DNA of 64,000 nucleotides from Mytilus trossulus (GCF_036588685.1 NC_086378.1:20646001-20710000), one strand, 5' to 3'; shown: positions 11,901 through 63,702, numbered from the stretch's first letter. A program made the numbers and translations. The notes: generated by a model from the letters alone, not told the origin.

Positions 11901-14900
11901 TTTTTTTTTTTTGCAAAATCCAGGAAAATTGGTACACACAAATCTGTAATCATTCTGAAAAAATTAAGATATAAGAACAAAATTAGCATATGGTACACTA
12001 GCAAGTATTTTAGAGATATCCGATTTTTTTTTCAGAAATTAAAAAAAACCATTTATATACTATTAATGTTTGTTTTTTCTATACAGGTGCAAGGAAGTAG
12101 TATTAAAGTTGAGGAAATCTTTGTCAAAGGAGAAGAAAATGAAAAACCAACAAAGAGTTGAAGTTTGGAAGTAAGTATACTTTGAAGTTCACCGTGAAAG
12201 TACTTGTATTTTTATGATACATACACAGATTTACTAGAATTGCATGGTTTTGGTTTGATGTCTACTTTGAAATATTTGCAAAGCTTGCAGGTTTAGGTTT
12301 GGGATTATATCAATGTGTAAAATCTTCGGAGCTATATCAGTTTGCGTGGAAATTTAAAAAAAAAAAAAAGCACCGTGATCTTTCCCTGATGATGTTTTAA
12401 TGGCCGTCCGGCTTAAAAAAAAAACTGTAAGATGAACCGCCAAATAATATTAAATCAATAATATTTGGTATACAGTTGCCTTAGCATTAGCATTTCTTCT
12501 TTCCACATTATTATTTGGCCATGCAACTTCAATCCTGGTTGATTTACTTTGAAAGTTTTGCATAGTTTTCATGTTAAGTTTTTAATTAAAACATTTACAA
12601 TCAATATTACATGTATGCAAGACATATCTCTATGTTAACAGTCAATAATTCTTGTTTTTATGCCTGACCTACAATAGTAGAGGGGCATTATGTTTTCTGG
12701 TCTGTTCATTCGTCCGTCTGTTCGTCTGCCCGTTCTTTCATTTGTTGGTCCGCTTCAGGTTGAAGTTTTTTGTAGAAGTAGTTTTTGATGAAGTTGAAGT
12801 CCAATCAACCTGAAACTTATTATACATGTTCCTTATGATGTGATCTTTCTAATTTTAATGCCAAATTAGAGTTCTGACCCCAATTGCAAGGTCCACTGAA
12901 CATAGAAAATGATAGTCCAAGTGGGGCATTTGTGTACTGGGGACACATTCTTGTTTGTTGTTTAATCTTTTACAACAATACCAGTTAAACAACACTGTTT
13001 TAAAGTCTGTTGTACAGTGCTGATTAAAATATAAATTGAATTTCAAATGCATATAAATTTTAGGCAAGAACTGAAAGATCTTGAGATATAAAAAAGAAGA
13101 TGTGGTCGATTGCCAATGAGACAACTATCCACAAGAGACCAAATGACACAGAAATTAACAACTATAGGTCACTTTACTGCCTTCAACAATGAGCAAAGCC
13201 CATACCACATTGCCGGCTATAAAAGGCCCCTAAATGACAAATGTAAAGCAAGTCAAAAGAGAAAAAGAGAAAATAACCGCCTTATCTATGTACAGAAAAT
13301 GGAGGAAAAACAAATGTGTAATACATCAACAAACAACAACCTTGAATTACAGGCTCCTGACTTGGCAGACACATACATACATAATGTGAGGGGGGGGTGG
13401 GGTTAACAAGTTAGCGGGATCCCAATCCTCCCCCTAACCTGGGACAGTGGGGTAACAGTACAACAGAAGAACGAACTATAAAAATCAGTTGAAAAAGGCT
13501 TAGCTCATCAGACAGTAACAAATAGAAATACATCTAACAAAAACGCAAAGTGGATGTGGCTGGTTAAGGTATATTCTCACAAAAAAAAAGACACTAAGTA
13601 CTGATCTAAGAGTACTCCCAGTTACCGAAAGCTAGTTCAAAGCTACTTACAACTATTAAAAAAAGTCATGCATCGAAGACTAAATTATTAATCTGTACAT
13701 ATCCAACATCCAATGGATTTATTGTTAGGACGTCATAAACAGGTATCGACAGATTGTAGATCCATGAATGTGTATATGTATACAACAATAATATTTAGTT
13801 TGCTTTTAATTTTAGAGTTAACTTTGTTTGTCTAAGATAAAAGTGTCTCACTCTAAAGTGCTTATTGAAATAGTGTTATTTCAAATGCTTATTTATTTTA
13901 GGCAAGAATTAACTGAGCTTGAGAGTAGGCTATGTTTGCCCAAGGTTACAGTGGCTGTGGTAGGAACAACGGGTGCAGGGAAGTCCAGTCTGATGAATGC
14001 CATTATAGACCATTACAATGTATTACCTACATCAGGTACACAGGCCTGTACAGCTGTGGTTGTCAAGATAGAGAGTAACAATGACAGTGATCTGTTTGAA
14101 GCTGATATTGAATTTCTCTCTATAGAGGTAAACATTTTCCCTTTAAAAAGTGTTTTTTGGTCTGTGTGTCTGTCTGTCCCACTTTAGGATAAAGTTTTAT
14201 AGTTTTTGGTCAAGTTAGATTTTGATTAAGTTAAAATTCAATCAACTTGAAACATAGTACACATGTTCACTATGATATGGTCTTTCTATTTTTATGCAAA
14301 ACTGAAGTTTAAGATCCAATATGGCGGTTCACTGGACATAGAAAATTATCATGTGAGTGGGACATCTGTGTACTATGGACACATTCTTATTCTTTCTTCT
14401 TTAACATTAAGCTCTTCTTATTTCAAATGATCTTGAAATTTAAAAAGATATATTATTTTCACTTTAAATAGATATTGGATTCTTTAAGTAGGTAAAAAAA
14501 TAATAAAAAAATCACAATGTATTCTTGCTTTGATGGTTAAATTATTTAAGGTTTACCAAAAACTCAAACCATATTGTTGAATCCATCCAACCAGTTACTA
14601 CTGTACAGTTGGATAACTGACATAAACGATAGATACAAGTAGGTAATGAAATGAGGAACAAACGAAGTGGAGAAATTTGCAGTTTTTTTATATAAAAAGT
14701 GAACTTCTAATACTTTAAGGTTTTTGAAAATATTAATATTCAATTTTAGGAATGGGAGAATGAACTCCAACTATTGAAAAAAGACTTGACAGATAAAAAT
14801 GGAAAAATAAAGAAAGTCAAACCTGACCCAGAAACAGAAGCAGGAGTAGCTTTTCTGAAGATGAGAGCTGTGTATGGAAAGTTTGAAACTTTTGAACAGT

Positions 14901-17900
14901 TGTCCAGACCAACTCCTGTGACAAGATGTCTAGGGAAGATTGAAACTGTTAAGTCAAGATGTGTAAGTTATACTATTGTTAATTTTGCGATATTGAGAAA
15001 AACCCTATTTAATTTACATAAAAAATTTCAAAAATGCAAGTTTGAATTATTGTGATCATAACCCTGTGACATTTTTGGCAATGATAAAAACATTGCAACG
15101 AAGTTATACTTTTTGAAACGTTAGACCCCACTCAAGGCTATAGTGAGTGACTATATTGCATTCATCTTGTGCATCGTTCCCATAGATGCCAACCATTACC
15201 ATTTTCCCGTAATTTTTCCGATTTTGCTATCAAAACTACGCTATTACGGTCAAAGTCGAATAGTTACGGATTCCCAATCATCGCCGTTCAATTGTGTAAA
15301 ATGCGGATTTTTATCATTGCTTTTTCGTCTTGGTCCAGTATTTAGTAAATGCCAATGTAATGCTTCCGGTTTCTCGGGAGTTATCGACCTATTGTTGTTT
15401 AACTAACTGACTTCCAAAGAGGGAAACTTGCATTTTATGAGTAGCTTTCCCCCTTTCTCTAATTCTCCTTGACAAAATGAAAATGTACGAGTCGAGAACA
15501 TTTAAACAATTAATGAATAGAATACAAACTACAGATAACATGTTTAATGAAACATGTTAGTGCACATCTGTTTGCAATCACTTGTTAGTATTTTTTATTG
15601 GTAAATGCATGTTTTTGAAAGATTACTGAAAACTTTTCAATAATACGGAAAATTTGATAGTTTGTTACTGAATGCCTTCAATGGGTCAAAAGGGGGTTGG
15701 CATCTATGCGTTCCATCTGTTCTTCCAAAATATATATTTCTTTCACAATTTTCTGAAGTACTTCTAAATGGATTGACTATGTATTTGGTAAGCTACTTGA
15801 TAGTGATGTTTTGTTAAGTTGTAGTACTTTTCAGTCGTAAGTTGTAGTGAGCACATTGCAGTTCAGTCTGAAACTTACTTTTTGTTACTAATATTTTAAA
15901 TTTTCATTATTTTCAATAAACTTACTGTGGATTTATTTATTTTCATTGGTATTATTTTATGTAGATCTAAAAAACCGTGAAAAATTGATATATTTAAATT
16001 TGTGGTTTATCTTTACACACAAAATCGATAATCCACAATATATTTAATTTGAACACAATATGAACTTTTTTGTTGAGAAAATCGTCACAAATTTTTCACT
16101 TCAAAATTCAAAGTATTTATACATATACTTCCAAAAAAAAGAAAAAAAGAAAGTGTTATAAAAGCCAGATTTGTTAAAGAATAATTTATCTACTATTTCA
16201 CTTTTCAGTCATCAACTTTCCGAAATAAGATTGACAAATATATAGAGAATACATCATCAAAGAACGGCGGACAGTACTGGCCTATTATTAAATCGGTAAC
16301 GATACGTATACCACATTGTTCAGTCTGTAGTAATGGTTGTACATTGGTAGACTTGCCAGGTGTTAGGGATTCTAATGCTGCCAGAGATAGGATAGCTAAA
16401 GATGTAAGTTATAACTTCTATTATTACATTGGTAGACTTGCCAGGTGTTAGGGATTCTAATGCTGCCAGAGATAGGATAGCTAAAGATGTAAGTTGTAAC
16501 TTCTATTATTACATTGGTAGACTTGCCAGGTGTCAGGGATTCTAATGCTGCCAGAGATAGGATAGCTAAAGATGTAAGTTGTAACTTCTATTATTACATT
16601 GGTAGACTTGCCAGGTGTCAGGGATTCTAATGCTGCCAGAGATAGGATAGCTAAAGATGTAAGTTGTAACTTCTATTATTACATTGGTAGACTTGCCAGG
16701 TGTCAGGGATTCTAATGCTGCCAGAGATAGGATAGCTAAAGATGTAAGTTGTAACTTCTATTATTACATTGGTAGACTTGCCAGGTGTCAGGGATTCTAA
16801 TGCTGCCAGAGATAGGATAGCTAAAGATGTAAGTTGTAACTTCTATTATTACATTGGTAGACTTGCCAGGTGTCAGGGATTCTAATGCTGCCAGAGATAG
16901 GATAGCTAAAGATATAAGTTGTAACTTCTATTATTACATTGGTAGACTTGCCAGGTGTTAGGGATTCTAATGCTGCCAGAGATAGGATAGCTAAAGATGT
17001 AAGTTGTAACTTCTATTATTACATTGGTAGACTTGCCAGGTGTCAGGGATTCTAATGCTGCCAGAGATAGGATAGCTAAAGATGTAAGTTGTAACTTCTA
17101 TTATTACATTGGTAGACTTGCCAGGTGTTAGGGATTCTAATGCTGCCAGAGATAGGATAGTTAAAGATGTAAGTTATAACTTCTATTATTACATTGGTAG
17201 ACTTGCCAGGTGTTAGGGATTCTAATGCTGCCAGAGATAGGATAGCTAAAGATGTAAGTTGTAACTTCTATTATTACATTGGTAGACTTGCCAGGTGTCA
17301 GGGATTCTAATGCTGCCAGAGATAGGATAGCTAAAGATGTAAGTTGTAACTTCTATTATTACATCGGTAGACTTGCCAGGTGTTAGGGATTCTAATGCTG
17401 CCAGAGATTATTTAGCTAAAGATGTAAGTTGTAACTTCTATTATTACATCGGTAGACTTGCCAGGTGTTAGGGATTCTAATGCTGCCAGAGATAGGATAG
17501 CTTAAGATGTAAGTTGTAACTTCTATTATTACATTGGTAGACTTGCCAGGTGTTAGGGATTCTAATGCTGCCAGAGACAGGATAGCTAAAGATGTAAGTT
17601 GTAACTTCTATTATTACATTGGTAGACTTGCCAGGTGTTAGGGATTCTAATGCTGCCAGAGATTATTTAGCTAAAGATGTAAGTTGTAACTTCTATTATT
17701 ACATTGGTAGACTTGCCAGGTGTTAGGGATTCTAATGCTGCCAGAGATAGGATAGCTAAAGATGAAAGTTATAACTTCTATTATTACATTGGTAGACTTG
17801 CCAGGTGTTAGGGATTCTAATGCTGTCAGAGATAGGATAGCTAAAGATGTAAGTTGTAACTTCTATTATTACATTGGTAGACTTGCCAGGTGTTAGGGAT

Positions 17901-20900
17901 TCTAATGCTGCCAGAGATAGGATAGCTAAAGATGTAAGTTGTAACTTCTATTATTACATTGGTAGACTTACCAGGTGTCAGGGATTCTAATGCTGCCAGA
18001 GATAGGATAGCTAAAGATGTAAGTTGTAACTTCTATTATTACATTGGTAGACTTGCCAGGTGTTAGGGATTCTAATGCTGCCAGAGATAGGATAGCTAAA
18101 GATGTAAGTTGTAACTTCTATTATTACATTGGTAGACTTGCCAGGTGTTAGGGATTCTAATGCTGCCAGAGATAGGATAGCTAAAGATGTAAGTTGTAAC
18201 TTCTATTATTACATTGGTAGACTTGCCAGGTGTTAGGGATTCTAATGCTGCCAGAGATAGGATAGCTAAAGATGTAAGTTGTAACTTCTATTATTACATT
18301 GGTAGACTTGCCAGGTGTTAGGGATTCTAATGCTGCCAGAGATAGGATAGCTAAAGATGTAAGTTGTAACTTCTATTATTACATTGGCAGACTTGCCAGG
18401 TGTCAGGGATTCTAATGCTGCCAGAGATAGGATAGCTAAAGATGTAAGTTGTAACTTCTATTATTACATTGGTAGACTTGCCAGGTGTTAGGGATTCTAA
18501 TGCTGCCAGAGATAGGATAGCTAAAGATGTAAGTTGTAACTTCTATTATTACATTGGTAGACTTGCCAGGTGTTAGGGATTCTAATGCTGCCAGAGATAG
18601 GATAGCTAAAGATGTAAGTTGTAACTTCTATTATTACATTGGTAGACTTACCAGGTGTTAGGGATTCTAATGCTGCCAGAGATTATTTAGCTAAAGATGT
18701 AAGTTGTAACTTCTATTATTACATTGGTAGACTTGCCAGGTGTTAGGGATTCTAATGCTGCCAGAGATTATTTAGCTAAAGATGTAAGTTGTAACTTCTA
18801 TTATTACATTGGTAGACTTGCCAGGTGTTAGGGATTCTAATGCTGCCAGAGATAGGATAGCTAAAGATGTAAGTTATAACTTCTATTATTACATCGGTAG
18901 ACTTGCCAGGTGTCAGGGATTCTAATGCTGCCAGAGACAGGATAGCTAAAGATGTAAGTTGTAACTTCTATTATTACATTGGTAGACTTGCCAGGTGTTA
19001 GGGATTCTAATGCTGCCAGAGATAGGATAGCTAAAGATGTAAGTTGTAACTTCTATTATTACATTGGTAGACTTGCCAGGTGTTAGGGATTCTAATGCTG
19101 CCAGAGATAGGATAGCTAAAGATGTAAGTTATAACTTCTATTATTACATTGGTAGACTTGCCAGGTGTTAGGGATTCTAATGCTGCCAGAGATAGGATAG
19201 CTAAAGATGTAAGTTATAACTTCTATTATTACATTGGTAGACTTACCAGGTGTTAGGGATTCTAATGCTGCCAGAGATAGGATAGCTAAAGATGTAAGTT
19301 GTAACTTCTATTATTACATTGGTAGACTTACCAGGTGTCAGGGATTCTAATGCTGCCAGAGATAGGATAGCTAAAGATGTAAGTTGTAACTTCTATTATT
19401 ACATTGGTAGACTTGCCAGGTGTTAGGGATTCTAATGCTGCCAGAGATAGGATAGCTAAAGATGTAAGTTGTAACTTCTATTATTACATTGGTAGACTTG
19501 CCAGGTGTTAGGGATTCTAATGCTGCCAGAGATAGGATAGCTAAAGATGTAAGTTGTAACTTCTATTATTACATTGGTAGACTTGCCAGGTGTTAGGGAT
19601 TCTAATGCTGCCAGAGATAGGATAGCTAAAGATGTAAGTTGTAACTTCTATTATTACATTGGTAGACTTACCAGGTGTTAGGGATTCTAATGCTGCCAGA
19701 GATTATTTAGCTAAAGATGTAAGTTGTAACTTCTATTATTACATTGGTAGACTTGCCAGGTGTTAGGGATTCTAATGCTGCCAGAGATTATTTAGCTAAA
19801 GATGTAAGTTGTAACTTCTATTATTACATTGGTAGACTTGCCAGGTGTTAGGGATTCTAATGCTGCCAGAGATAGGATAGCTAAAGATGTAAGTTATAAC
19901 TTCTATTATTACATCGGTAGACTTGCCAGGTGTCAGGGATTCTAATGCTGCCAGAGACAGGATAGCTAAAGATGTAAGTTGTAACTTCTATTATTACATT
20001 GGTAGACTTGCCAGGTGTTAGGGATTCTAATGCTGCCAGAGATAGGATAGCTAAAGATGTAAGTTGTAACTTCTATTATTACATTGGTAGACTTGCCAGG
20101 TGTTAGGGATTCTAATGCTGCCAGAGATAGGATAGCTAAAGATGTAAGTTATAACTTCTATTATTACATTGGTAGACTTGCCAGGTGTTAGGGATTCTAA
20201 TGCTGCCAGAGATAGGATAGCTAAAGATGTAAGTTATAACTTCTATTATTACATTGGTAGACTTACCAGGTGTTAGGGATTCTAATGCTGCCAGAGATAG
20301 GATAGCTAAAGATGTAAGTTGTAACTTCTATTATTACATTGGTAGACTTACCAGGTGTCAGGGATTCTAATGCTGCCAGAGATAGGATAGCTAAAGATGT
20401 AAGTTGTAACTTCTATTATTACATTGGTAGACTTGCCAGGTGTTAGGGATTCTAATGCTGCCAGAGATAGGATAGCTAAAGATGTAAGTTGTAACTTCTA
20501 TTATTACATTGGTAGACTTGCCAGGTGTTAGGGATTCTAATGCTGCCAGAGATAGGATAGCTAAAGATGTAAGTTGTAACTTCTATTATTACATTGGTAG
20601 ACTTGCCAGGTGTTAGGGATTCTAATGCTGCCAGAGATAGGATAGCTAAAGATGTAAGTTGTAACTTCTATTATTACATTGGTAGACTTGCCAGGTGTTA
20701 GGGATTCTAATGCTGCCAGAGATAGGATAGCTAAAGATGTAAGTTGTAACTTCTATTATTACATTGGCAGACTTGCCAGGTGTCAGGGATTCTAATGCTG
20801 CCAGAGATAGGATAGCTAAAGATGTAAGTTGTAACTTCTATTATTACATTGGTAGACTTGCCAGGTGTTAGGGATTCTAATGCTGCCAGAGATAGGATAG

Positions 20901-23900
20901 CTAAAGATGTAAGTTGTAACTTCTATTATTACATTGGTAGACTTGCCAGGTGTTAGGGATTCTAATGCTGCCAGAGATAGGATAGCTAAAGATGTAAGTT
21001 GTAACTTCTATTATTACATTGGTAGACTTGCCAGGTGTTAGGGATTCTAATGCTGCCAGAGATAGGATAGCTAAAGATGTAAGTTGTAACTTCTATTATT
21101 ACATTGGTAGACTTGCCAGGTGTTAGGGATTCTTATGCTGCCAGAGATAGGATAGCTAAAGATGTAAGTTGTAACTTCTATTATTACATTGGTAGACTTG
21201 CCAGGTGTTAGGGATTCTAATGCTGCCAGAGATAGGATAGCTAAAGATGTAAGTTGTAACTTCTATTATTACATTGGTAGACTTGCCAGGTGTTAGGGAT
21301 TCTAATGCTGCCAGAGATAGGATAGCTAAAGATGTAAGTTGTAACTTCTATTATTACATTGGTAGACTTGCCAGGTGTTAGGGATTCTAATGCTGCCAGA
21401 GATAGGATAGCTAAAGATGTAAGTTGTAACTTCTATTATTACATTGGTAGACTTGCCAGGTGTTAGGGATTCTAATGCTGCCAGAGATTATTTAGCTAAA
21501 GATGTAAGTTGTAACTTCTATTATTACATTGGTAGACTTGCCAGGTGTTAGGGATTCTAATGCTGCCAGAGATAGGATAGCTAAAGATGTAAGTTATAAC
21601 TTCTATTATTACATTGGTAGACTTACCAGGTGTTAGGGATTCTAATGCTGCCAGAGATTATTTAGCTAAAGATGTAAGTTGTAACTTCTATTATTACATT
21701 GGTAGACTTGCCAGGTGTTAGGGATTCTAATGCTGCCAGAGATTATTTAGCTAAAGATGTAAGTTGTAACTTCTATTATTACATTGGTAGACTTGCCAGG
21801 TGTTAGGGATTCTAATGCTGCCAGAGATAGGATAGCTAAAGATGTAAGTTATAACTTCTATTATTACATCGGTAGACTTGCCAGGTGTCAGGGATTCTAA
21901 TGCTGCCAGAGACAGGATAGCTAAAGATGTAAGTTGTAACTTCTATTATTACATTGGTAGACTTGCCAGGTGTTAGGGATTCTAATGCTGCCAGAGATAG
22001 GATAGCTAAAGATGTAAGTTATAACTTCTATTATTACATTGGTAGACTTACCAGGTGTTAGGGATTCTAATGCTGCCAGAGATAGGATAGCTAAAGATGT
22101 AAGTTGTAACTTCTATTATTACATTGGTAGACTTACCAGGTGTCAGGGATTCTAATGCTGCCAGAGATAGGATAGCTAAAGATGTAAGTTGTAACTTCTA
22201 TTATTACATTGGTAGACTTGCCAGGTGTTAGGGATTCTAATGCTGCCAGAGATAGGATAGCTAAAGATGTAAGTTGTAACTTCTATTATTACATTGGTAG
22301 ACTTGCCAGGTGTTAGGGATTCTAATGCTGCCAGAGATAGGATAGCTAAAGATGTAAGTTGTAACTTCTATTATTACATTGGTAGACTTGCCAGGTGTTA
22401 GGGATTCTAATGCTGCCAGAGATAGGATAGCTAAAGATGTAAGTTGTAACTTCTATTATTACATTGGTAGACTTGCCAGGTGTTAGGGATTCTAATGCTG
22501 CCAGAGATAGGATAGCTAAAGATGTAAGTTGTAACTTCTATTATTACATTGGCAGACTTGCCAGGTGTCAGGGATTCTAATGCTGCCAGAGATAGGATAG
22601 TTAAAGATGTAAGTTGTAACTTCTATTATTACATTGGTAGACTTGCCAGGTGTTAGGGATTCTAATGCTGCCAGAGATAGGATAGCTAAAGATGTAAGTT
22701 GTAACTTCTATTATTACATTGGTAGACTTGCCAGGTGTTAGGGATTCTAATGCTGCCAGAGATAGGATAGCTAAAGATGTAAGTTGTAACTTCTATTATT
22801 ACATTGGTAGACTTGCCAGGTGTTAGGGATTCTAATGCTGCCAGAGATAGGATAGCTAAAGATGTAAGTTGTAACTTCTATTATTACATTGGTAGACTTG
22901 CCAGGTGTTAGGGATTCTAATGCTGCCAGAGATAGGATAGCTAAAGATGTAAGTTGTAACTTCTATTATTACATTGGTAGACTTTTGCCAGGTGTTAGGG
23001 ATTCTAATGCTGCCAGAGATAGGATAGCTAAAGATGTAAGTTGTAACTTCTATTATTACATTGGCAGACTTGCCAGGTGTTAGGGATTCTAATGCTGCCA
23101 GAGATAGGATAGCTAAAGATGTAAGTTGTAACTTCTATTATTACATTGGTAGACTTGCCAGGTGTCAGGGATTCTAATGCTGCCAGAGATAGGATAGCTA
23201 AAGATGTAAGTTGTAACTTCTACTATTACATTGGTAGACTTGCCAGGTGTTAGGGATTCTAATGCTGCCAGAGATAGGATAGCTAAAGATGTAAGTTGTA
23301 ACTTCTATTATTACATTGGTAGACTTGCCAGGTGTTAGGGACTCTAATGCTGCCAGAGATAGGATTGCTAAAGATGTAAGTTATAACTTCTATTATTACA
23401 TTGGTAGACTTGCCAGGTGTTAGGGATTCTAATGCTGCCAGAGATAGGATAGCTAAAGATGTAAGTTGTAACTTCTATTATTACATTGGTAGACTTGCCA
23501 GGTGTCAGGGATTCTAATGCTGCCAGAGATAGGATAGCTAAAGATGTAAGTTGTAACTTCTATTATTACATTGGTAGACTTGCCAGGTGTTAGGGATTCT
23601 AATGCTGCCAGAGATAGGATAGCTAAAGATGTAAGTTGTAACTTCTATTATTACATTGGTAGACTTGCCAGGTGTTAGGGATTCTAATGCTGCCAGAGAT
23701 AGGATAGCTAAAGATTTAAGTTGTAACTTCTATTATTACATTGGTAGACTTGCCAGGTGTTAGGGATTCTAATGCTGCCAGAGATAGGATAGCTAAAGAT
23801 GTAAGTTGTAACTTCTATTATTACATTGGTAGACTTGCCAGGTGTTAGGGATTCTAATGCTGCCAGAGATAGGATAGCTAAAGATGTAAGTTGTAACTTC

Positions 23901-26900
23901 TATTATTACATTGGTAGACTTGCCAGGTGTTAGGGATTCTAATGCTGCCAGAGATAGGATAGCTAAAGATGTAAGTTGTAACTTCTATTATTACATTGGT
24001 AGACTTGCCAGGTGTCAGGGATTCTAATGCTGCCAGAGATAGGATAGCTAAAGATGTAAGTTGTAACTTCTATTATTACATTGGTAGACTTGCCAGGTGT
24101 TAGGGATTCTAATGCTGCCAGAGATAGGATAGCTAAAGATGTAAGTTGTAACTTCTATTATTACATTGGTAGACTTGCCAGGTGTTAGGGATTCTAATGC
24201 TGCCAGAGATAGGATAGCTAAAGATGTAAGTTGTCACTTCTATTATTACATTGGTAGACTTGCCAGGTGTTAGGGATTCTAATGCTGCCAGAGATAGGAT
24301 AGCTAAAGATGTAAGTTGTAACTTCTATTATTACATTGGTAGACTTGCCAGGTGTCAGGGATTCTAATGCTGCCAGAGATAGGATAGCTAAAGATGTAAG
24401 TTGTAACTTCTATTATTACATTGGTAGACTTGCCAGGTGTTAGGGATTCTAATGCTGCCAGAGATAGGATAGCTAAAGATGTAAGTTATAACTTCTATTA
24501 TTACATTGGTAGACTTACCAGGTGTCAGGGATTCTAATGCTGCCAGAGATAGGATAGCTAAAGATGTAAGTTGTAACTTCTATTATTACATTGGTAGACT
24601 TGCCAGGTGTTAGGGATTCTAATGCTGCCAGAGATAGGATAGCTAAAGATGTAAGTTGTAACTTCTATTATTACATTGGTAGACTTGCCAGGTGTCAGGG
24701 ATTCTAATGCTGCCAGAGATAGGATAGCTAAAGATGTAAGTTGTAACTTCTATTATTACATTGGTAGACTTGCCAGGTGTCAGGGATTCTAATGCTGCCA
24801 GAGATAGGATAGCTAAAGATGTAAGTTGTAACTTCTATTATTACATTGGTAGACTTACCAGGTGTCAGGGATTCTAATGCTGCCAGAGATAGGATAGCTA
24901 AAGATGTAAGTTGTAACTTCTATTATTACATTGGTAGACCTGCCAGGTGTTAGGGATTCTAATGCTGCCAGAGATAGGATAGCTAAAGATGTAAGTTGTA
25001 ACTTCTATTATTACATTGGTAGACTTGCCAGGTGTTAGGGATTCTAATGCTGCCAGAGATAGGATAGCTAAAGATGTAAGTTATAACTTCTATTATTACA
25101 TTGGTAGACTTGCCAGGTGTCAGGGATTCTAATGCTGCCAGAGATAGGATAGCTAAAGATGTAAGTTATAACTTCTATTATTACATTGGCAGACTTGCCA
25201 GGTGTTAGGGATTCTAATGCTGCCAGAGATAGGATAGCTAAAGATGTAAGTTATAACTACAGTCAAACCTATTATACTGGTAACCTCCATTTTAAAAGGA
25301 AAAAAACTGTGGTCAAGTCACTCTCTTCCTACTCCACTACTGTACATAGTACCTGTAAATATATCCTCAACTCAAATGATACCTTTCTTAGACTGTCTAT
25401 TTTCTCAGGTATCCATGCCAAGAGGACAGTTATATACCAACTGTTGGCTTTTGCCTGTTAATTGCTCTTTGGTTTGGTTATTGTCTTTTTGACACATTCC
25501 TCATTTCCATTCTCAATTTAATATACATTTGAATACTGTTGATTCATATTACTGTTTTATACAATTTTTGCGATTTTTAACATTTTTGGCAAAGATGAAT
25601 AAATAAGTTTACATTGTATAAACTTATTTGTTAAATCAATATCAGGAATTAGGTTTATACAAGCGAAGTTATACTTCTTGTCCCCAGAAATTCTTTATAA
25701 ACCAGTTTTACTGTAGTTTTCTGTGTAAGTAATAACTGATGAATTCTCATCTTAGAAAATTGACATAATGAATATCATTGAAGTTGGGATTACTTATACC
25801 CTCCCTGTAGTGTCTGTGTCCCATGGACACGGACACATTTCATTCATTTTCAGAATTTCTATCTGAAATCATTCTTGAAATGAGCTTCCCTGTAGTATTA
25901 CATGTTTATATATATAGTTTCCTTACAGCCAGCCAATCACACACTCAACTTTGTCAGTTTGTACGGTTAGAAATTGACACTTGTTGTTCTAAAATAACTT
26001 AATAATATGGATAAGATTCACAAACTAAAAATTGCTATTTTTTATGCCCCACCTACAATAGTAGAGGGGCATTATGTTTTCTGGTCTGTGCATCTGTTTG
26101 TTTGTCTGTCTGTCCGTTCGTTCGTCGGTCTGTCCGTTCGTTCATCCGTCTGTCCCGCTCCAGGTTAAAGTTTTTGGTCGAGGTAGTTTTTGATGAAGTT
26201 GAAGTCCAATCAACTTGAAACTTAGTATACATTTACCCTATGATATGATCTTTCTAATTTAAATGCCAAATTATAGTTTTTACCCAACTTCATGGTCCAC
26301 TGAACATAGAAAATGATAGTGCGAAGTTCAGGTTAAAGTTTTTGGTCAAGGTAGTTTTTGATGAAGTAGAAGTCAAATCAACTTGAAACATAGTATACAT
26401 GTTCCCTTTGATAAGATCATTCTAATTTTAATGCCAAATTAGAGAATTTACTCCAATTTCACGATCCACTAAACATATAAAATGATAGTGCGAGTGGGGC
26501 ATCTGAGTACTGTGGACACATTCTTGTTTTTGTAGTACTTGAAAAACTGTTCTGTAATTCTGGTGGTGGCTGAGGTCCATAGAGCTTCCACAAGTAAAAC
26601 AGCCAAAGAATTACTAGGGGACAACTTCCGTCGACAGCTACTCATGGATGGACAATATGGAAACGTAGCATTTATATGTACCAAGAATGATGTACTGCAG
26701 CCTTCAGAACTCATAAGGTAAAAATTATACCCAAACCATGTATATGGTAGACAATAATCCTATAAGTGCCAGACCAATTAGGGGTTGATCCAGTGTTGAT
26801 ATTGTCCTAACTATTTATGTTATTTAGACAAATGTGTAATTTATATCAACAATGAAAAGTTAGCATAATTTTGGGTTTCTAGGGGGATGTGCATTTCAGA

Positions 26901-29900: not shown

Positions 29901-32900
29901 CACATAAAAATATTTATTTTTCGTGCAATGTTCATTACAGAATTTTTTTCACGTTCAACATGAAATTATATCTTATTTTACGTTATTTTCGTGCAAGCAC
30001 CCCCCTTTACCACCCTCAGCAAACCCCAGAATTTCCACTCTAATAATACTATTTTGAAACAAATATCTGATATAAAGTAAGTAGTTATCCATGATACAAC
30101 ATAAGATAAATGTTGTAAAGAAAGATCATTTTAACAATTCAAGATAAATGTTACAATGTAAAATAAATTTATGTTACAATTTAAGATATATGTTACAATG
30201 TGAGATAAATATTACATTGTAAGATAAATATTACATTGTTAGATAAATATTACAATGTAAGATAAATATTACATTGTGAGATAAATATTACATAGTAAGA
30301 TAAATATTTCAATGTAAGATAAATATTACAATGTAAGATAAATATTACAATGTAAGATAAATGCTTTCTTTTTGCAAATGAATAGGAGTTTATTTTTTCA
30401 TAGGAAGAAAATGAACAGTTAGAAGAATTGACGTCAGATCTACAGAGAAAAAGTGTAAAGTTATCATTGAAACAGCAGGCTGTGGATGCTAAGAGAATGA
30501 AAGTGGACAACATCCAGTCACAAAATAATCAATTGATAATTGAGATGAACCACAAAAGAAAAATGATTAATATGATCTGTGCTAAAGCTAGAACTATCTT
30601 TGCAAGGAATGCCATTAAGAAGGATTATAAAGCTGGAGTTAGGGTATGTATCAATAGTTTAATACTGTATATAAAGCTGGAGTTAGGGTATGTATCAATA
30701 GTTTAATATTGTATATACCACAGATCTATCAAGGGTATGTATCAATAGTTTAATACTGTATATACCACAGATCTATCAATATAAATGTTTGGAAATGTGC
30801 ATATTTATATTAAAAATTTAATTTTGATGTAACGCTTCTTCTGATTGGCTGACGTTATTTTGTTATGAGCATTTGACCGTGACGTCATCAATGTTTTTTC
30901 ATGCTTTTCTACGGTTTAAAAAGGAATTTAGAATTAAATTATAAGAAATGACTGTAATATTTTTTCTGTCTATTCGAAATAACATAAAAAAATTGGTGCA
31001 TACTGTTAAATAACCCGCTACACGTGTTATTCAGTGTGCACCAAATTTTTTATGTTATTTCTTCATAGACAGAAAAAATATTACAGTCATTCCTTAAATA
31101 ATTTATATCTTGAAACATTTTAGTATTAACTTGTGTATCATTCCTCTAATATAATTTTGGCACATTTTTTGCATTTATGAACAAAGAGAAAAAAAGACCT
31201 TTTTCAACATGACAATAAAAATAAACTTTTTACCTGGGATTATGTCCTTGGAAAAAAAGCAACACTGAGGCCAAAAATAAATAATTGTTTGTTTCCCCAA
31301 ACCCGACCCTATCAAGTCAGGTGAGGGTAGGTAGGTAGGTAAATTATTTTATTTTTTTGGTAATTTTTTTTTTTTGTACTTGTAAATAGGAAATTACAAA
31401 CCATCATTATAGGGCTGTATTTTAAATTCTAGGGTGTATTAAGCTATCAGTTTCCTCATGTCAGATTTATCAAATAAAACTCTATGTATAATTTGAAATA
31501 GTTTATTTAATTGGGTTTCTTTTGGGTGGTAATTTTCCAATAATGACACAGTCTTTGTTGCCCCCACAGCTGCACAGAAGGTACATAAATTGGGCTGTGC
31601 CACAGTAGTCATAATACGTGAATTCAACATGTGTTCGTCACAGTCTATCTGTAGGTGCACATTCAACACGCCTTCAACAGCATCACCTGAAATAAAGAAC
31701 AAGAGATCTTTAATAAATAAAAAAATAATATCCTAGAGTACTTTGTATATATATATATATATATTGGGAATTTTCGATGAAGGAAATGTCTAAAATACTG
31801 AGCCTTCTGTTTATTATATTAAGCAGTATAATCTGTCAGAAATCTGTCCAAGTTCAACATCAGAGTGTTCTAGTAGAATGAAGTTTATACCGTTCATTGA
31901 AGTATGCAATTTTCCACTGAAAAAGGATTTGAACATTGAACCCATATCAAACACTGAATAACTCAATGGAACATGAATATAAAATATAATCAACTGAGAG
32001 TGTATGTTCGATGTGGAAATTTCATTCAATGTTGGGTAACAAAATCATGCTATGCAAGACCATGTTATTATACATTAAAAATGATAAGAAAATCTTTTGG
32101 GAATACTATAAAAGCATTCCTTCAGGTGTGATAACAGATCAACAACAGTAGTCATACTTGGTTAGCAGTCTGTCGAATGCTCTTGATTCTCGAACAGTTA
32201 CCATTGTGGCAGCCTTCTATTTAGAGAAGTATGCATGGACTGTCTGCTTTAACAAGACTAGTGTGGAGTGATCTGCTTTTATTAGGGACCAAATGATTAA
32301 TTTAAATCAATTGCTTTCAGGCCTCAGGTTAAATTATTAAGGGCATAAGGAAATCATTAGGGAATTTAGGTAAAGGGTTTAAAAAATTGCAAGAAAAAGA
32401 ATGCAAACAAAGGTGGGGAGACTCTCCTTATCCTAAAAAAGTCTACCTTTGCTTGCAAGAAATAGATGTTGGGACGGTCACTTATTATACATACCTGTTA
32501 ACTTGTTAATAGCTTCTTCTTTTCCCTTAGAAAGTTTGTTGACAGCTTGACTGGCTCCCATAATTTTGTCAAAGGTGTTGACAACATTTGAGGAGGAGGC
32601 TTCTTTTTCTTTAGAGGTCCCATCAATATTAATGTCAATGCAAAATTTCAAAATTTTAAATATGTATAGGAAGATGTGGTATGAGTGCCAATGAGGCAAC
32701 TCTCTATCCAAATAACAATTTATAAAGGTAAACAGTTGTAGGTCAAGGTACAGCCTTCAACATGGAGCCTAATGGCTCACACCTAGCAAGCTATATATAT
32801 AAAGGCTTGTATAAAAAGTAAAAACACAAAAATACTGAACTCCGAGGAAAATTCAAAAAGGAAAATCCAAAAACAAAAGGCAAAATCAAAAGTCCAAACA

Positions 32901-44900: not shown

Positions 44901-47900
44901 TAATTCTTTCAACTGAGCTAAAAAAAAAATTTGGGTTTCCTTCTCCTTTAAGAAATAGGTATCCCATTATGCCCTATTCTTGTCTCAATCGTCAACAAAT
45001 AATTTGTGGTTGTTCCAATGAAAATTAATTGATATTGGATTACTGTGGATTCATTATTATTCGTTGGATACCAATTTTCGTGGGTTTCGTTGGTACAGGT
45101 GAACCATGAATGAAAATGTTCAACGAATATCATATTTTTAATAGACCTTGTATACAGAGATTGGCAAAACCATGAAAACAAATATCCACGAATATGCAAG
45201 TTTTTAGCAATCCACGAAAATTGATACCCACGAAAATAAATGAATCCACAGTAATTTGACTATTTTTTGCTCATCCCTTGTTCATATCAAGTTGTACAAG
45301 TGTACTTTTTTTTGTTGGTAAATTCAGGAAATGAAGAGAAAAGCCAAGATGACCCAAGAAGAAATAGAGGAAGATGAGGAGGATGACTATGTCAGTGATG
45401 AAGATGATAATGATTTAACAAGGTCATGTGACAATCTACAGGTCTTCTGTGTCAGCTCATCTGAATACCAAAAATTAAACAACAGACTAACAGATGATGG
45501 ACCACCTACGGTATGTTTTTTTTTTTTTTAAATTTGATAAATGCAAATATGGAAATCTGCTTTATTCAAAATAAAGAAGAAAAAAAATTAGAAAGTTAGT
45601 AGTATTTAGATTCTATTTCAGTAATATCATGAAATGGTGAAGTCTGAATATGACCAATTCCAATCAAATTATAATTCTGTCTACATAGACAGCAGAATGT
45701 ATGTTTAGGTATTTCTACATCATTTTAAATTGAAAATAGCCGTCACCTTTTGATGGTAGCAATCTGAAATGAAGATTTGGTAAGGGACAACATCAAAAGT
45801 TCAATGTAGGATAAAAAACTTAATTCACATAGTTTTTTCACTGACCCCCACACCCCCCTTCCTAATTTAATTTGGGAAAAATTGATTTACCAATAGGGAT
45901 ATATGTAAAAATCGATTTTAGACAATCAAAACTTGCAGAATTTTAACCCCCCACCCCCAAACTATTTGATTGAAGTTTTTTATCCTACATCGATCTTTTG
46001 ATGTCGGCTCTAATATAAACTGTGCAGAAAATTGCGTCTGACATGGAATCTGACATTATGATGTTATACCCTTACACGTTTGAATTTAAAGGATCATAAA
46101 ATATTAGTTATAAGAAGTATTTAAGTGCGCAACTTTGCAATAATATTTTTACTTGTTTGGAAAACGTTTGGATTAACATCATAGAAATGCTCCTTGCAGC
46201 AAAGGACATATTTGTCCAAAGTGAGTTCAGCAGATTCTATGCAACCATCAAATACATAGCTGTCAATTGACCCGTATTCTGTGGATGTGACCCGAGATTT
46301 TCACAATTCTGAGGGATCACCCGGATCACCCGCTGGGTCATTGAAATAACCCGGGGATTCCAAAAATGACCCTTATTTCTTAGCCTTGAGATTGATTTTA
46401 TAAGTAATATAGTCGAAATACCAGCAAATTCGTAATTCTTCCATAAACAGAAAGTTCATCTAGCTATGTAAACTGTCAAGTTAAGTGACCCATTAAGTGC
46501 ATGGCTTCACTTGACAGCTTTGGTGTCAAACACACTGTTAATTAACACCAATTACCCTAGCTTTAGGTCGTAAATAAATTGCACTATTGGTTTGCAAAAA
46601 TATTTCAACCAAGATTTACTTCCCCTTATTTGTCACCATTCAAAATTATTCCTTATATTTACGTTTTATGGGTGAAAAAGATTTAATAATCAAAATATTA
46701 AATTCAAATACATATTGAAAAATAACTTATCATTATTTTTATACCTTTATACAATTTAAAAAAAAAAAGTTGAAAATTATATTTTACATTTATACTTCCT
46801 TTAACTGTATTACATGTACTATATTTTATCATAGTCTAATTTCCTTTTAAACTGACAATCCATCATGAATACAGTCACGTCTCAGTCCTTACAGCTGAAC
46901 GGACGTGCTGGGTCAGCTCTCCTTTACCCGCTATCTTCGATGAGGGTTTATTGCTAGATGGTCAACGACATACTACTAAGATGACAGAAACCAATCCATG
47001 CCGTACAGAGAGACGTAGTAGTTGGCGTACCCGCGTTAACATGCCTCCAAAACCATTGTCTATTATGGGGAGTGTCATGCCTATTAACGTCCGAGGGCTG
47101 TATCCTAGGCTGTTGGGTGATACGACCTTCATTTTACTGCCTCACGGCTTTGGTCCTGATAACGCTTCCTGTCATCTTTAAAACTACGTCCACGATTCAT
47201 CTGCCAGTACTCCTTCATCGAGGCTAGCGGGCTGCCAAGCTGACCAAACTGGCCCTGAAAGCAGCCGTTAGTGAAGAAAAACATCAAAATAGTAAACAAA
47301 GAAAAATCAACTCACCAAAACCAAGATGGCGGCCTACATATTGCGACCTCCACTACTTGTTCCTGACCCATGGCATCAAATCATTTAAAGCTCACCAAAC
47401 GCCTTCGGGCACCGAGCCGACCGTGCGAGGGCTGAAAGGCCAGTCAAGGTCGTTAAACACTTCCATATATATATTTTAAACTGAAAGATGGTATATTTGA
47501 AATCTACATAGTCAGTAGTGTCAAACCTTTTGAAATTAAATTTGAATAATAAATTGATGTGTTTCATAATCTCAAAAAGGAAACAACATAATACTGTGTT
47601 ATTCAAATGTATAACAAATCTTTAAAAGTGCAATAAAATAATAATTAATAGAATTTAAAATGACTTAACCAAGCGAACATGCATTGTTGTTTTGGTATCT
47701 TTGATATACATTATAAGAAAATGTACCATTAATACTGAAATTCTGCTCGAAAAAGTTTGTACCCGTTATGACCTGAGATTTGATTCTTCAATGCAGGTAA
47801 TGACCTGCATTTTCATCATCACAGGTTGACAGGTATGCAAATATATATATATATATATGTAATAGACGATGCTGAGAATACAGAGATTCCAGCAGTCAGA

Positions 47901-50900
47901 CAATTCATCAGACAGATTTCTATTCATGATTATGATTTCAGGTATTTAATGATGCTAAGGATACAGAGATCCCAGCAGTCCGACAGTTCATTAGACAGAT
48001 TTCTAATCATGATTATGATTTCAGGTATTTGATGATGCTGAGGATACAGAGGTTCCAGCAGTCAGACAGTTCATTAGACAGATTTCTAATCATGATTATG
48101 ATTTCAGGTATTTGATGATGCTGAGGATACAGAGATCCAAGCAGTCAGACAGTTCTAATCATGATTTTGATTTCAGGTATTTAATGATGCTGAGGATACA
48201 GAGATCCAAGCAGTCAGACAGTTCATTAGACAGATTTCTAATCATGATTTTGATTTCAGGTATTTAATGATGCTGAGGATACAGAGATCCCAGCAGTCAG
48301 ACAGTTCATTAGACAGATTTCTAATCATGATTTTGATTTCAGGTATTTAATGATGCTGAGGATACAGAGATCCCAGCAGTCAGACAGTTCATTAGACAGA
48401 TTTCTAATCATGATTTTGATTTCAGGTATTTAATGATGCTGAGGATACAGAGATCCCAGCAGTCAGACAGTTCATTAGACAGATTTCTAATCATGATTTT
48501 GATTTCAGGTATTTAATGATGCTGAGGATACAGAGATCCCAGCAGTCAGACAGATCATTAGACAGATTTCTAATCATGATTATGATTTCAGGTATTTAAT
48601 GATGCTGAGGATACAGAGATCCCAGCAGTCAGACAGTTCATTAGACAGATTTCTAATCATGATTATGATTTCAGGTATTTGATGATGCTGAGGATACAGA
48701 GATTCCAGCAGTCAGACAGTTCATTAGACCCATTTCTAATCATGATTATGATTTCAGGTATTTGATGATGCTGAGGATACAGAGATCCCAGCAGTCAGAC
48801 AGTTCATTAGACAGATCTCTAATCAGAAGAGAGAAGAAGCCACAAAAAGACTCATACAGAATCTGGCAGTTTTTATCTATGACATACAAAACTACTTAAC
48901 AGAAAATGGTCTTACAGTATGTATTCTTTTTATTAAACTGTAAATAATTATAAACTAGTTTGCTATGACAGTGTCTTTGATGATGTTTTAGATTTCAGTA
49001 TATATAATCTGTATTTCTAAAATAGTTTGTTATGACAGTGTTTTGTTTGAACATATTTTATTTACTCAAAGTAAAATGGATTGGACACAAGTAAGCCATA
49101 ATGACAATGTTTTTGGTGATATTTAAAAATTTCAGTGTATGTAATGTATGTATGATGGGTCGTCGTAACAATGAATGGCTTACCTTTTGCTTTTAGTATA
49201 GAAAAAAAAAATATTCATATACCACTTCCCATTTAAGTTTTTGATATGCTTTTGAATTTTTTCTATTCCTGTAATTTTTCCAATAGGGCTTGATACAATG
49301 TATAACTACGATTTTATTTATGTGTTTTTTAGAACAAAAACGACAGGTTTACAGTACAATCAGCAGTAGAAGATTTTTCCTCAAGGTTACATGAAGAGTT
49401 ATCTCCCATACTAGAAAGCCTACAACAAGATGTTGGCCATGAACTAGACAGTAGTATAGCAGCACGATTAAACAGAGGTGTAGAGGTTGCTGTCAACAGT
49501 GCAATAGAAACCTGTAAAGGTTGGGGCTCAGCTGTAAGTTTACCATGATATATAGACAGAAAATGCATATCATTTGAATAAAGATTTCAATTTCAAATGC
49601 ATGAACTTTTAAAGAGGGATTTGAGCTACAATTTTGATAATGAAATTAAAACATTTGTTTCTATTGTTAATAATAACAATGGAATATAAGAATAATTTTT
49701 AGTTATGTGCAGTGAGTATAAAATATTGCTGATGTATTCTTGACTTGCATCTTTATAAACAAACAAAAAACGAGAACCATATGAACAAACGACAAATACT
49801 GGACATAAGATTTCAATGATAATAAGGCTAACCTTTGTCTTTTTCTAGTTTTAAATATTTATTTTAGGTAAAAAAAGAAGATAAAAACAAAGGAGGGTTA
49901 TGTTTCTCTACTTACAAAGCAACAGTACGTAGATATGGTAATTTTCAATCACCCACTGCAGGCTTGATCGACTTCAACGAAAATTTAGCAGAACCACTAA
50001 CTACGAGCATAAGTATAGTATGGACCAAATTCTTTAGGTGAGAACCATATCAAATAAGTGTAATTATTATGTTTGAAGATGCTTCTATTGTTTATTTAAA
50101 AACAAAACATAACGTTGGTATTTTAAATTTAAGTCATAGATACTGTAGAAACTTTAACTTTCATGGGGATTTAATTTCGTGGTTTCCAAAAAATTGAAGT
50201 GATTAATTGTATGTAGGTGAAATTTTCATGTTTTTTTTTTTATTTCGTGGTTTCCAAAAAATTGAAGTGATAATTATATGCAGGTGAAAATTTGATGTTT
50301 TTTTTTATTTGTCGATATATTCTTTCCACGAAATAAACGAATGTAAAACCTCATTCAAAATTTCTGCTTTTTCAGTATAGACTAACAGAGGATTCTCAAT
50401 TTTTTATCACCCCTTTCTGGAAGCTTGTACTCATCTCAATCTAGTTGTTTCATTAATTATTTTTGAGCAAGCCAAAAAAACTTAATTTTTTGCACATTTC
50501 ACATAAAAATGATGAAATATTTTATTCTTAAGAATGCATTTTTTTGTGTGCAGATTCAATATCATCATTGCCAGTTTATGGTTATGGAACATTTTGGATC
50601 ATAGGTTGCGGTCAAAGGTTTCCTCATCCTTTACGATGAGAAAAAAATGCATAAAATCCTTGTATTTTGACAATTTATCCAAAATATGCTGATTTTGAAG
50701 CAACAAGTGTTCTCTTAATGAAGAGCTTTATGTTGGAAAAGAACTAAGGCTTTTGAAATTGATTCATTAGCATGATATAAAAACCAAATTAAGGCCAACT
50801 TGAAATTTTATGTTAAAGTTGAAATTCAAGGCTGTAGTTGGCATGAGGTCACCATTGTGCGTTTTTATGTTAAGTTTTATCCAATTTTAGTGTTGATTTG

Positions 50901-53900
50901 TGGAACCTTCTTGAGAGATACAAGCTGAGAATACTGAGTACATTACGGTCCTTCACTGGCAAACTTTGTGTAGAACTGATGTCTTGTAATGTATCAAGAA
51001 ATCAATTGGATACAGCACAAAGACAATTCCATTTGATTTCTGGAACAAAGGTAATATTTACAAATACTGCTTTATTAGCATTTCAGTATTATTAAAAAGT
51101 ATTTATATAATAGTATATTTTTTCTTTTAACGTCTCCTCCATGGAATTTTTTTTCTCACTTACTTGATTCACATAGGATTTTTTCAATAAAAACAATTCA
51201 TCAAGTTTGAAGTATAAATGCATTGTGAAAACGAATATTTCATCAATGAAATTCAAGTCAGATATTCTTATGAAAGTCCTTTTCATATTGGATACTAATT
51301 TTTTTAAGTTTGATGAAGACATTTTGTATTCAAAGCGTTTCAACTGAGGTACTACACAGGTGTCAAAAGGCGTCATTATGGAGGAAAGGGGGTGGCGTCA
51401 AAGAGCGTCATTATGGAGGAAAGGGTTAAGCATAACTAAGAACAATACTATTAACCCAATCAACAGCTGAATGTACAATTAATAGTACCAATATATCCAC
51501 GGAGGGAACATATACATGTACAATTAACAATTAAGATTCATTTTGTCATGTCTGGTGATTTGTTTATTTGGCAATCGCCAGTCAGCAGGGTTTGAGAACA
51601 TCCTTTGTTTGACCTGCTAGTAGAATGTAATTTGTTAAAATATTCTTTTTCCCTTTTTTTGTCTTTTGGAAAATTTTGTTTGTGCTGTATTTAAACCCCT
51701 CTACCAAGAAATTTGTTTTGCATGCACACATATAAAAATTGCAGATTTAGCTTAGCTTTGAACATTGTTTTCAATTTAGACTTGTTGATATATATATATC
51801 TGTCAGTGCACTAAATCCATTTCAGTTAGGAAGGATTTATTATTATTATACCCCCGCTTTAAAAAAGGGGGGGTACTGTTTTACCTCTGTCAGTCCGTCC
51901 GTCCCATGAATATTTTTGTCGCATTTTTCTCAGGAACTACAATACAAGGATTTCTGAAATTTGGTTTCAGGGTTTATCTAAGTCAGCTATACCGTGTGAT
52001 CCGTTTTCAGATTAATCACTTGACAACTTCCTGTTTACCGAACACTTGTATGATTTTACACATGATAGCCAAGTTGAAAATTTTCGTCACATTTTTCTCA
52101 GGAACTACAATACAAGGATTTCTGAAATTTGGTTTCAAGATTTATATAAGTCAGCTTTACCGTGTGATGCGTTTTCAGATTCATCACTCGACAACTTCCT
52201 GTTTACCGAACACTTGCATATTTTTACACTATTAATATTATCCACATGCGGCGGGGGTATCATCAGTGAGCAGTAGCTCGCAGTTTCACTTGTTCATATT
52301 GTTATCTAGGATGCCTTATGATGGCTTGATACCAACCCCTCTTTTTGAAACTTTTTGCTTAGTTAAAAATGTCAGTTTCTGATAATTAGGTCCTAGGGGA
52401 TCGGTCATGGTAAATCAATGATATTGTGTGTGCAGTTGTATCAAATTAGCAGGTATCATATCTAGGAAATATTTTGGTAAGTTTTTTTTAATTTTATTTA
52501 CAAATACTCTTCTATTTTAATTAATAGAATTGCAAATGTATATTTTTTCTTTATGAATAATCTTTCATTTTAGTTGACAGAAATGATTAGGAATTTACAA
52601 GAGTTTGTTATAGAAAGACAGAGAGATATGAACAGGATATTTCCTCCAACTATTAAGGTAAGAGAGTTTGTTATAGAAAGACGGAGAGATATGAACAGGA
52701 TGTTTCCACCAAATATTCAGGTAAGAGAGTTTGTAATAGAAAGACAGAGAGATATGAACAGGATGTTTCCACCAACTATTCAGGTAAGAGAGTTTGTAAT
52801 AGAAAGACAGAGAGATATGAACAGGATGTTTCCACCAACTATTCAGGTAAGAGAGTTTGTAATAGAAAGACAGAGAGATATGAACAGGATGTTTCCACCA
52901 ACTATTCAGGTAAGAGAGTTTGTAATAGAAAGACAGAGAGATATGAACAGGATGTTTCCACCAACTATTCAGGTAAGAGAGTTTGTAATAGAAAGACAGA
53001 GAGATATGAACAGGATGTTTCCACCAACTATTCAGGTAAGAGAGTTTGTAATAGAAAGACAAAAAGATATGAACAGGATGTTTCCACCAACTATTCAGGT
53101 AAGAGAGTTTGTAATAGAAAGACAGAGAGATATGAACAGGATGTTTCCACCAACTATTCAGGTAAGAGAGTTTGTAATAGAAAGGCAGAGAGATATGAAC
53201 AGGATGTTTCCACCAAATATTCAGGTAAAGAGAGTTTGTTATAGAAATACAGAGGGATATGAACAGGATGTTTCCACCAACTATTCAGGTAAGAGAGTTT
53301 GTTATAGAAATACAGAGGGATATGAACAGGATGTTTCCACCAACTATTCAGGTAAGAGAGTTTGTTATAGAAAGACAGAGGGATATGAACAGGATGTTTC
53401 CACCAACTATTGAGGTAAAAGAGTTTGTTATAGAAAGACCGAGGGATATGAACAGGATGTTTCCACCAACTATTCAGGTAAGAGAGTTTGTAATAGAAAG
53501 GCAGAGAGATATGAACAGGATGTTTCCACCAACTATTCAGGTAAGAGAGTTTGTTATAGAAAGACAGAGGGATATGAACAGGATGTTTCCACCAACTATT
53601 CAGGTAAGAGAGTTTGTTAAAGAAAGACAGAGGGATATGACCAGGATGTTTCCACCAACTATTCAGGTAAGAGAGTTTGCTATAGAAAGACAGAGAGATA
53701 TGAACAGGATGTTTCCACCAACTATTCAGGTAAGAGAGTTTGTTATAGAAAGACAGAGAGATATGAACAGGATGTTTCCACCAACTATTCAGGTAAGAGA
53801 GTTTGTTATAGAAAGGCAGAGAGATATGAACAGGATGTTTCAACCAACTATTCAGGTAAGAGAGTTTGTAATAGAAAGACAGAGAGATATGAACAGGATG

Positions 53901-63543: not shown

Positions 63544-63702
63544 GTTAGTCATTGATTTTCACATTTATAGCTGTGTTTTCACTGTTTTTTGCAATTGAAA
63601 GTATGTTATAAATGTTACTAAAAATCTAGTACAAATAAATGTAAAAATATGTTATGAAAAATAGGAGGTGATGAGGCATCTTTAGCCAAATGTAAATCAG
63701 CT

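What the first reader, a model, noticed from the sequence alone, without database searches (positions are those of the whole stretch)
16340..25258. The GTPase G3 (DxxG) coding segment exists in about 105 near-identical intronic copies
Seen: each 85-bp unit encodes TLVDLPGVRDSNAARDRIAKD followed by GTAAGT, and the exonic copy matches the array consensus. The unit is not a multiple of 3 and read-through reaches a stop in the next copy, so only donor 1 is productive. Variant units exist (gattatttagct giving DYLAK, ttggcagac giving LAD, tcttatgct giving SYA). Inference: an essential catalytic motif is exposed to concerted evolution with a satellite, so unequal crossover or gene conversion could swap variant units into the exon. 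The array also supplies 104 decoy U1-binding sites.
Basis: partly seen in the sequence, partly recalled or inferred. Interest (0 to 1): 0.7.

Follow-up and report, generated by a model that had tools for sequence, protein, structure and literature searches.

The report
Splice-donor 'mirage' array, mussel GTPase
In a mussel dynamin-like GTPase gene the end of one exon and its splice signal are copied 104 more times into the next intron, but splicing at any later copy would break the protein, so the cell likely uses mainly the first one and this is likely a harmless, unusually large example of a repeat type already known from lancelet and human genes.

Summary
An 85-bp unit is repeated 105 times (16340-25258). 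Unit 1 holds the last 64 nt of a coding exon of a Mytilus SLIP-GC-like GTPase (DLPG motif) and its donor. 102 of 105 units keep GTAAGT, and any donor but the first meets a stop. Two RNA-type contigs join the exon once, straight to the next exon, but neither is shown to come from an array-bearing allele. The concerted-evolution idea found no support: no amino-acid-changing array variant appears in the 3 runs that cover the exon end or in 2 Mytilus proteins, and in a sister array the exonic unit has 2 private differences. This is a 'mirage' (lancelet) or F7-IVS7-type (human) minisatellite. The scan has noted the type before in other genes of this genome. What stands out is clustering: 4 of 30 homology-supported junctions of this gene are amplified, one array is in frame with 9 stop-free extra donors, and a paralog (1) and a malate dehydrogenase gene (2) carry such arrays too. 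A 1.3-Mb sample did not show genome-wide enrichment.

The parts
13897..14127 (+). Exon with the P-loop (G1) of the dynamin-family, SLIP-GC-like GTPase domain (limits from tblastn, approximate)
   Evidence: Pfam Dynamin_N E 1.4e-08; tblastn with P0002
16210..16403 (+). Exon G; its last 64 nt are the exonic part of unit 1; DLPG motif at 16350-16361
   Evidence: Homologs; contigs of X7 and X8 cover 16209-16403 and continue into exon H; ends checked
16340..25258 (+). 85-bp x 105 array: 64 nt exon end + 13 nt intron start with GTAAGT + 8 nt junction; fills 87% of the 10,132-nt intron
16404..16409 (+). Donor 1, the only donor that gives an open frame
25269..25275 (+). 7-nt flank sequence equal to the last 7 nt of the unit junction; likely template of the founding duplication
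   Evidence: the 7-mer lies in 0.18% of 25-nt windows at 26-47 kb
26536..26718 (+). Exon H, next coding exon (phase 0)
   Evidence: 100% identical to P0001 and P0002; spliced contigs
30626..30779 (+). Second junction array: 44/47-bp, about 3 copies, over the donor of exon J (30404-30643)
   Evidence: contigs end exon J at 30642-30644
47868..48825 (+). Third junction array: 83-bp x 12 over the acceptor of exon L; the last copy runs into the real exon (from 48758)
52600..59842 (+). Fourth junction array: 63-bp x 115 over the donor of exon P (52574-52657); donors 2-10 are in frame and stop-free (+21 aa each)
63703..64000 (+). 42-bp array, about 3.3 kb in all (continues to L011:4041); relation to an exon not established

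Best explanation
The array is a tandem repeat of one exon end with its splice donor that likely arose by a single local duplication and likely grew by slippage or unequal crossover; the cell likely splices mainly at the first donor, so the other 104 copies are likely unselected intron. Shown: unit anatomy, stop for every later donor, a 12-unit block duplication, decay of copies (nonsense, frameshift and donor-killing changes), and spliced exon G-H contigs with one copy of the exon end. Inferred: the founding duplication used short local homology, because the junction matches sequence 10 nt past the array. Inferred from F7: the most upstream donor wins, and rare use of donor 2 or later would give premature stops removed by nonsense-mediated decay. 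Such a duplication is tolerated because unit 1 leaves the exon and its donor intact, and purifying selection would remove any exchange that changed the motif.
For: Unit structure and variants: 13 distinct changes in the coding part, 7 of them missense or nonsense, plus a 2-bp insertion and 3 lost donors. Units 28-39 repeat as 40-51. X7 (1747-nt contig) covers exon G at record 177-371 and exon H from 372; X8 likewise ends at 16403 with exon H letters behind. The tandem junction is present in 3 of 4 runs, so the array is no assembly artefact. The peptide is conserved across distant homologs. Precedents: F7 IVS7 uses only the upstream donor, and lancelet mirages do not disturb splicing.
Against: No run shows donor-1 splicing on an allele proven to carry the array: X7 showed no array contig, the X8 exon differs from the array seen in that run, and the X2 contigs are broken at shared words. 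Contigs drop rare forms, so use of later donors is unmeasured. In human CBS and 6-16, two downstream pseudo-sites are used. 6 of 13 coding-part changes are synonymous against 24-29% expected (about P 0.15 by my hand calculation). Neutrality alone does not explain 4 amplified junctions in one gene.
Confidence: 0.8

Rival explanations
1. Expression rheostat: decoy donors divert a share of transcripts to premature-stop forms, or slow the removal of a 10-kb intron, so copy number tunes GTPase level.
For: 101 intact decoy donors, all unproductive. Array-junction contigs occur in 3 of 4 RNA-type runs. Pseudo-sites are used in CBS and 6-16.
Against: Array contigs are expected from unspliced RNA or DNA, multiplied by about 100 copies, and the RNA status of the runs is a guess. 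Three donors are already lost, at a rate like other positions. F7 pseudo-sites do not compete.
Confidence: 0.1
2. One reading: exon end and array evolve in concert, and the array is a reservoir that swaps variant units into the catalytic motif.
For: The exon part of unit 1 equals the consensus. The two commonest variants are synonymous. G>A at unit position 16 (12 units) is also read in the X8 exon allele.
Against: No missense array variant in X2, X7, X8, P0001 or P0002. Unit 1 and the last three units keep A at position 72, where only 17 of 104 units do. The exonic unit of the 63-bp array has 2 private differences among 115 units. Lancelet border units are excluded from homogenisation. In X8 the exon differs from the array of the same run at 3 or more synonymous sites, though the two may lie on different haplotypes.
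Confidence: 0.07
3. The array, or its length, is an assembly error.
For: One assembly only; no DNA reads were laid.
Against: No N in the window; ordered variant blocks; the tandem junction is in 3 of 4 independent runs from 3 studies.
Confidence: 0.03

Closest known systems
Lancelet 'mirages' (Adh3, troponin C, globins BflGb6 and BflGb9, PGBD5); PMC3087553 and PMC3902484, passages read
   Same: Minisatellite-like tandem copies of an exon-intron boundary, on the donor or the acceptor side; unit 10-160 bp; splicing reported as undisturbed; border units excluded from homogenisation.
   Different: Mollusc. 105 copies and 8.9 kb against 3-6 units for BflGb6. Four junctions of one gene are hit. Length instability was not tested here.
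Human F7 IVS7 37-bp VNTR, and the CBS, 6-16, LAMIN B2 and PDGF cases cited with it; PMC1557585, abstract and introduction read
   Same: First unit spans the exon-intron boundary; identical downstream pseudo-donors; the upstream donor gives the normal message.
   Different: F7 has 5-9 copies with 4 exonic nt; the others have 10-25 copies. Here there are 105 copies with 64 exonic nt that include a GTPase motif. No splicing assay was done here.
SLIP-GC-like dynamin-family GTPases (Pfam PF00350 Dynamin_N, PF24564 DUF7605, PF00498 FHA upstream)
   Same: P-loop exon, DLPG motif and DUF7605 exons; hits named nuclear GTPase SLIP-GC-like in bivalves.
   Different: Long acidic low-complexity region in front; activity untested. 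The labels G1 and G3 are recalled, not from a call.

Membership tests
Mirage / splice-donor-spanning minisatellite | Head-to-tail repeat whose border unit spans a true exon-intron boundary | tested here: met
   Unit 1 = 16340-16424 across the exon end 16403, which homologs and contigs fix
Mirage / splice-donor-spanning minisatellite | Splice signal reiterated in the intronic copies | tested here: met
   102 of 105 units keep GTAAGT
Mirage / splice-donor-spanning minisatellite | Normal message made from the authentic border site | tested here: inconclusive
   X7 and X8 contigs join one exon end to exon H, but are not shown to come from array-bearing alleles; X2 is ambiguous
Mirage / splice-donor-spanning minisatellite | Copy number varies between haplotypes | not tested
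   No DNA runs were laid; the lack of an array contig in X7 shows nothing about absence
Mirage / splice-donor-spanning minisatellite | Turnover inside the array, border units left out | tested here: met
   12-unit block duplication; A72 kept in unit 1 and units 103-105 (weak); private differences in unit 1 of the 63-bp array
Dispersed or transposon-borne satellite | Unit present at many loci or inside a mobile element | tested here: not met
   105 of 106 genome matches lie in this locus; the first 180 nt after the array matched no other sampled DNA among the rows shown
Tandem exon array with alternative cassette exons | Each copy has its own acceptor and keeps the frame | tested here: not met
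   The only candidate looked at gives a 53-nt piece, out of frame, and lacks the first 130 nt of exon G
SLIP-GC-like dynamin-family GTPase | Dynamin_N domain with P-loop and DxxG motif, followed by DUF7605 | tested here: met
   single exons other than the P-loop exon score below the Pfam cut-off

The most novel reading that the evidence does not exclude
Splice junctions of some mussel genes are hot spots for tandem duplication and runaway expansion through a transcription- or splicing-coupled mutational process, with this gene an extreme case: 4 of 30 junctions, two arrays over 7 kb. Its in-frame 63-bp array would let donors 2-10 add 21 to 189 residues, giving copy-number-dependent isoforms, and the four arrays together form a natural test of splice-site choice among more than 100 identical sites.
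Probability: 0.25. Interest if true: 0.6.

Novelty: new member of a known kind. Interest (0 to 1): 0.27.

Why it matters
As a single locus it adds a large molluscan example to a known oddity. Its use is as a test bed: 101 identical decoy donors that all lead to a stop, beside an in-frame array in the same transcript, allow a clean measure of first-donor fidelity and of whether nonsense-mediated decay hides errors. If junction clustering holds genome-wide, it would point to a mutational link between splicing and repeat birth, which PMC3087553 calls unclear. Such arrays can also mislead gene prediction and read mapping.

Tried and rejected
No listed run is on record as RNA; four guessed RNA runs were laid as contigs only, so levels and rare donors could not be read. 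One search was swamped by dispersed repeats and its tables were cut. The X8 mismatch between exon and array was considered as a direct refutation of co-evolution and set aside: the exon differs from the window at 13 of 195 nt while the array contig differs at about 1, which suggests two haplotypes or mixed material. Searches for a full-length Mytilus protein covering exon P found none, so the residues of other alleles at the 63-bp array and its donor use stay unknown. Two representatives with several matched stretches (P0027, P0099) were not repeated exons. The idea that the 4-nt DYL variant was copied from spliced message was dropped: the window's exon H start does not match it and the unit junction is as good a template. 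Genome sample: 14 blocks of 100 kb; the C14 block was dropped as one large repeated unit (looks like an rDNA spacer, recalled and untested). The first donor count for the 63-bp array had an index error and was redone. The Adh3 mirage paper is not held. Searches that found no molluscan report or conversion test: (open-access library only). No supplements were read.

Full report
Observation. TRF finds an 85-bp array at 16340-25258 with 104.9 copies and 97% matches. Splitting on an anchor gives 105 units, one with a 2-bp insertion. Each unit is 64 nt of exon end, 13 nt of intron start with GTAAGT, and an 8-nt junction. Of 104 units without the insertion, 83 encode the exact peptide and 57 match the exon part of unit 1 base for base. 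102 of 105 keep the donor. Mean pairwise difference is 2.3% and units 28-39 recur as 40-51. The named variants are there: DYLAK 9, LAD 5, SYA 1. The unit is confined to this locus: 105 of 106 genome matches, the other being a paralogous exon (a lower bound).

The gene. Exon G (16210-16403) has 17 homologs, the best at 98% in M. edulis and 94% in M. coruscus; several others are named nuclear GTPase SLIP-GC-like. Pfam finds Dynamin_N on the P-loop exon and, weakly, on exon G, DUF7605 further on and an FHA exon upstream of the window. tblastn places 15 exons between 12 and 64 kb. Exon H starts at 26536 in phase 0. The intron is 10,132 nt, 87% of it array, and would be 1,290 nt with one unit. The motif region is conserved in distant homologs, so it is far older than the array.

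Splicing. Read-through meets a stop in unit 2, before donor 2, so every later donor is unproductive. Four of 23 listed runs were laid; all are contigs and their RNA status is a guess. In X7 one contig holds exon G at record 177-371 and exon H from 372. In X8 a contig ends exon G at 16403 with exon H letters behind. X2 has the same junction on a short contig. X1, X2 and X8 also hold the tandem junction; X7 shows none. So normal splicing and the array are both real outside this assembly. The limit: no contig proves donor-1 use on an array-bearing allele, and contigs cannot count rare donors.

Concerted evolution. A young array copied from an exon matches that exon by descent, so the match is no evidence of exchange. 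The tests I could run: no missense array variant is listed in X2, X7 or X8 or present in P0001 and P0002. Unit 1 and units 103-105 keep A at position 72, as only 17 of 104 units do. In the 63-bp sister array, two bases of the exonic unit are shared by no other of the 115 units, both changing a residue. The X8 exon differs from the array of its own run at 3 or more synonymous sites, but the two may be on different haplotypes. For the idea: 6 of 13 coding-part changes are synonymous against 24-29% expected (about P 0.15 by hand), the two commonest are synonymous, and one equals an X8 exon base. This is weak either way; rare conversion is not excluded.

Origin. The last 7 nt of the junction equal the sequence 10 nt beyond the last unit, a word found in 0.18% of nearby 25-nt windows. 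This suggests a founding duplication by local misalignment; the pathway is inferred. Later growth by slippage or unequal crossover is inferred from the block duplication.

Surroundings. The same gene has three more junction arrays: 44/47 bp over the exon J donor, 83 bp x 12 over the exon L acceptor, and 63 bp x 115 over the exon P donor. The last is in frame, and donors 2-10 are stop-free; its donor use was not examined. That makes 4 of 30 junctions and 4 of 6 non-coding arrays that I counted with units of 30 bp or more. Leaving out the array that prompted the look, 3 of 5 has a chance of about 0.001 under random placement (post hoc, small numbers, junction count from homology only). The paralog on C2 has one donor array, 57 bp x 8, among about 20 exons. 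In 13 unselected 100-kb blocks there were 71 arrays, 40 of them single-locus. Two are confirmed donor arrays, both in one malate dehydrogenase gene. About four more have splice-like motifs but no confirmed exon, and part was cut. Only 2 of the 71 exceed 3 kb, against three in this gene. Without annotation this sample shows recurrence and clustering, not genome-wide enrichment.

What is known. PMC1557585 (abstract and introduction read) describes the F7 IVS7 VNTR: identical pseudo-donors, only the upstream one used. It lists CBS and 6-16, where two further sites are used, and LAMIN B2 and PDGF, where none is. PMC3087553 (passages) and PMC3902484 (one passage) describe lancelet mirages on both donor and acceptor sides, with normal splicing, length instability and border units left out of homogenisation; the first calls the generating mechanism unclear. 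The term and the lead came from earlier scan notes, which list eight similar arrays elsewhere in this genome, unreviewed and not counted as evidence; none lay near this window. Five searches of the open-access library found no molluscan description and no test of array-to-exon conversion.

Verdict. A real, large mirage at a GTPase motif exon, likely neutral, of a known kind. The variant-reservoir idea is unsupported but not excluded. The part worth following is the clustering of four junction arrays in one gene and the in-frame 63-bp array. Interest 0.27.

Noticed in passing
window 52600-59842: 63-bp x 115 donor array, in frame; donors 2-10 would add 21-189 residues without a stop. The exonic unit differs from the consensus by two private residue changes. 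Donor use untested.
   Followed up: partly
window 47868-48825: 83-bp x 12 array over an acceptor; the last copy is the real exon start.
   Followed up: partly
window 63703-64000 and L011:703-4041: 42-bp array of about 3.3 kb just after a possible acceptor at 63665; 14-codon unit, open for two copies; no homolog support for an exon.
   Followed up: partly
window 1-5823 and 9394-11043; L013: Very long acidic coding exons with 60-, 24- and 81-bp coding repeats between an FHA domain and the GTPase domain.
   Followed up: partly
window 34150-34638 (+), 37736-39631 (-), 44223-44711 (-): The intron between exons J and K holds ORFs matching P2RX7_C, a Mutator-like transposase and THAP: likely a nested DNA transposon.
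   Followed up: partly
L106:8920-L107 and L109:5120-5910 (G000 C8): A malate dehydrogenase gene with two donor-spanning arrays, 62 bp x 5 and 70 bp x 11.
   Followed up: partly
L016:7337-7779 (-) (G000 C2): The paralogous SLIP-GC-like gene has a 57-bp x 8 donor-spanning array at a different junction, and a 31-bp array ending just before an acceptor (L018:5690-5822).
   Followed up: partly
window 30102-30362; L034:5147-5329; L043:1790-2247; L078:3764-5269: Several purely intronic arrays start or end within about 10-40 nt of a real or likely splice site.
   Followed up: no
run X8 on window 16209-16424: The spliced exon is 13 of 195 nt away from the window while the array contig of the same run is almost identical to the window's: mixed haplotypes, a hybrid or carry-over.
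   Followed up: no
L116 around 4900 (-) (G000 C9): A repeat-coded precursor with MLRLG-K/R motifs that looks like a neuropeptide precursor (label recalled, untested).
   Followed up: no
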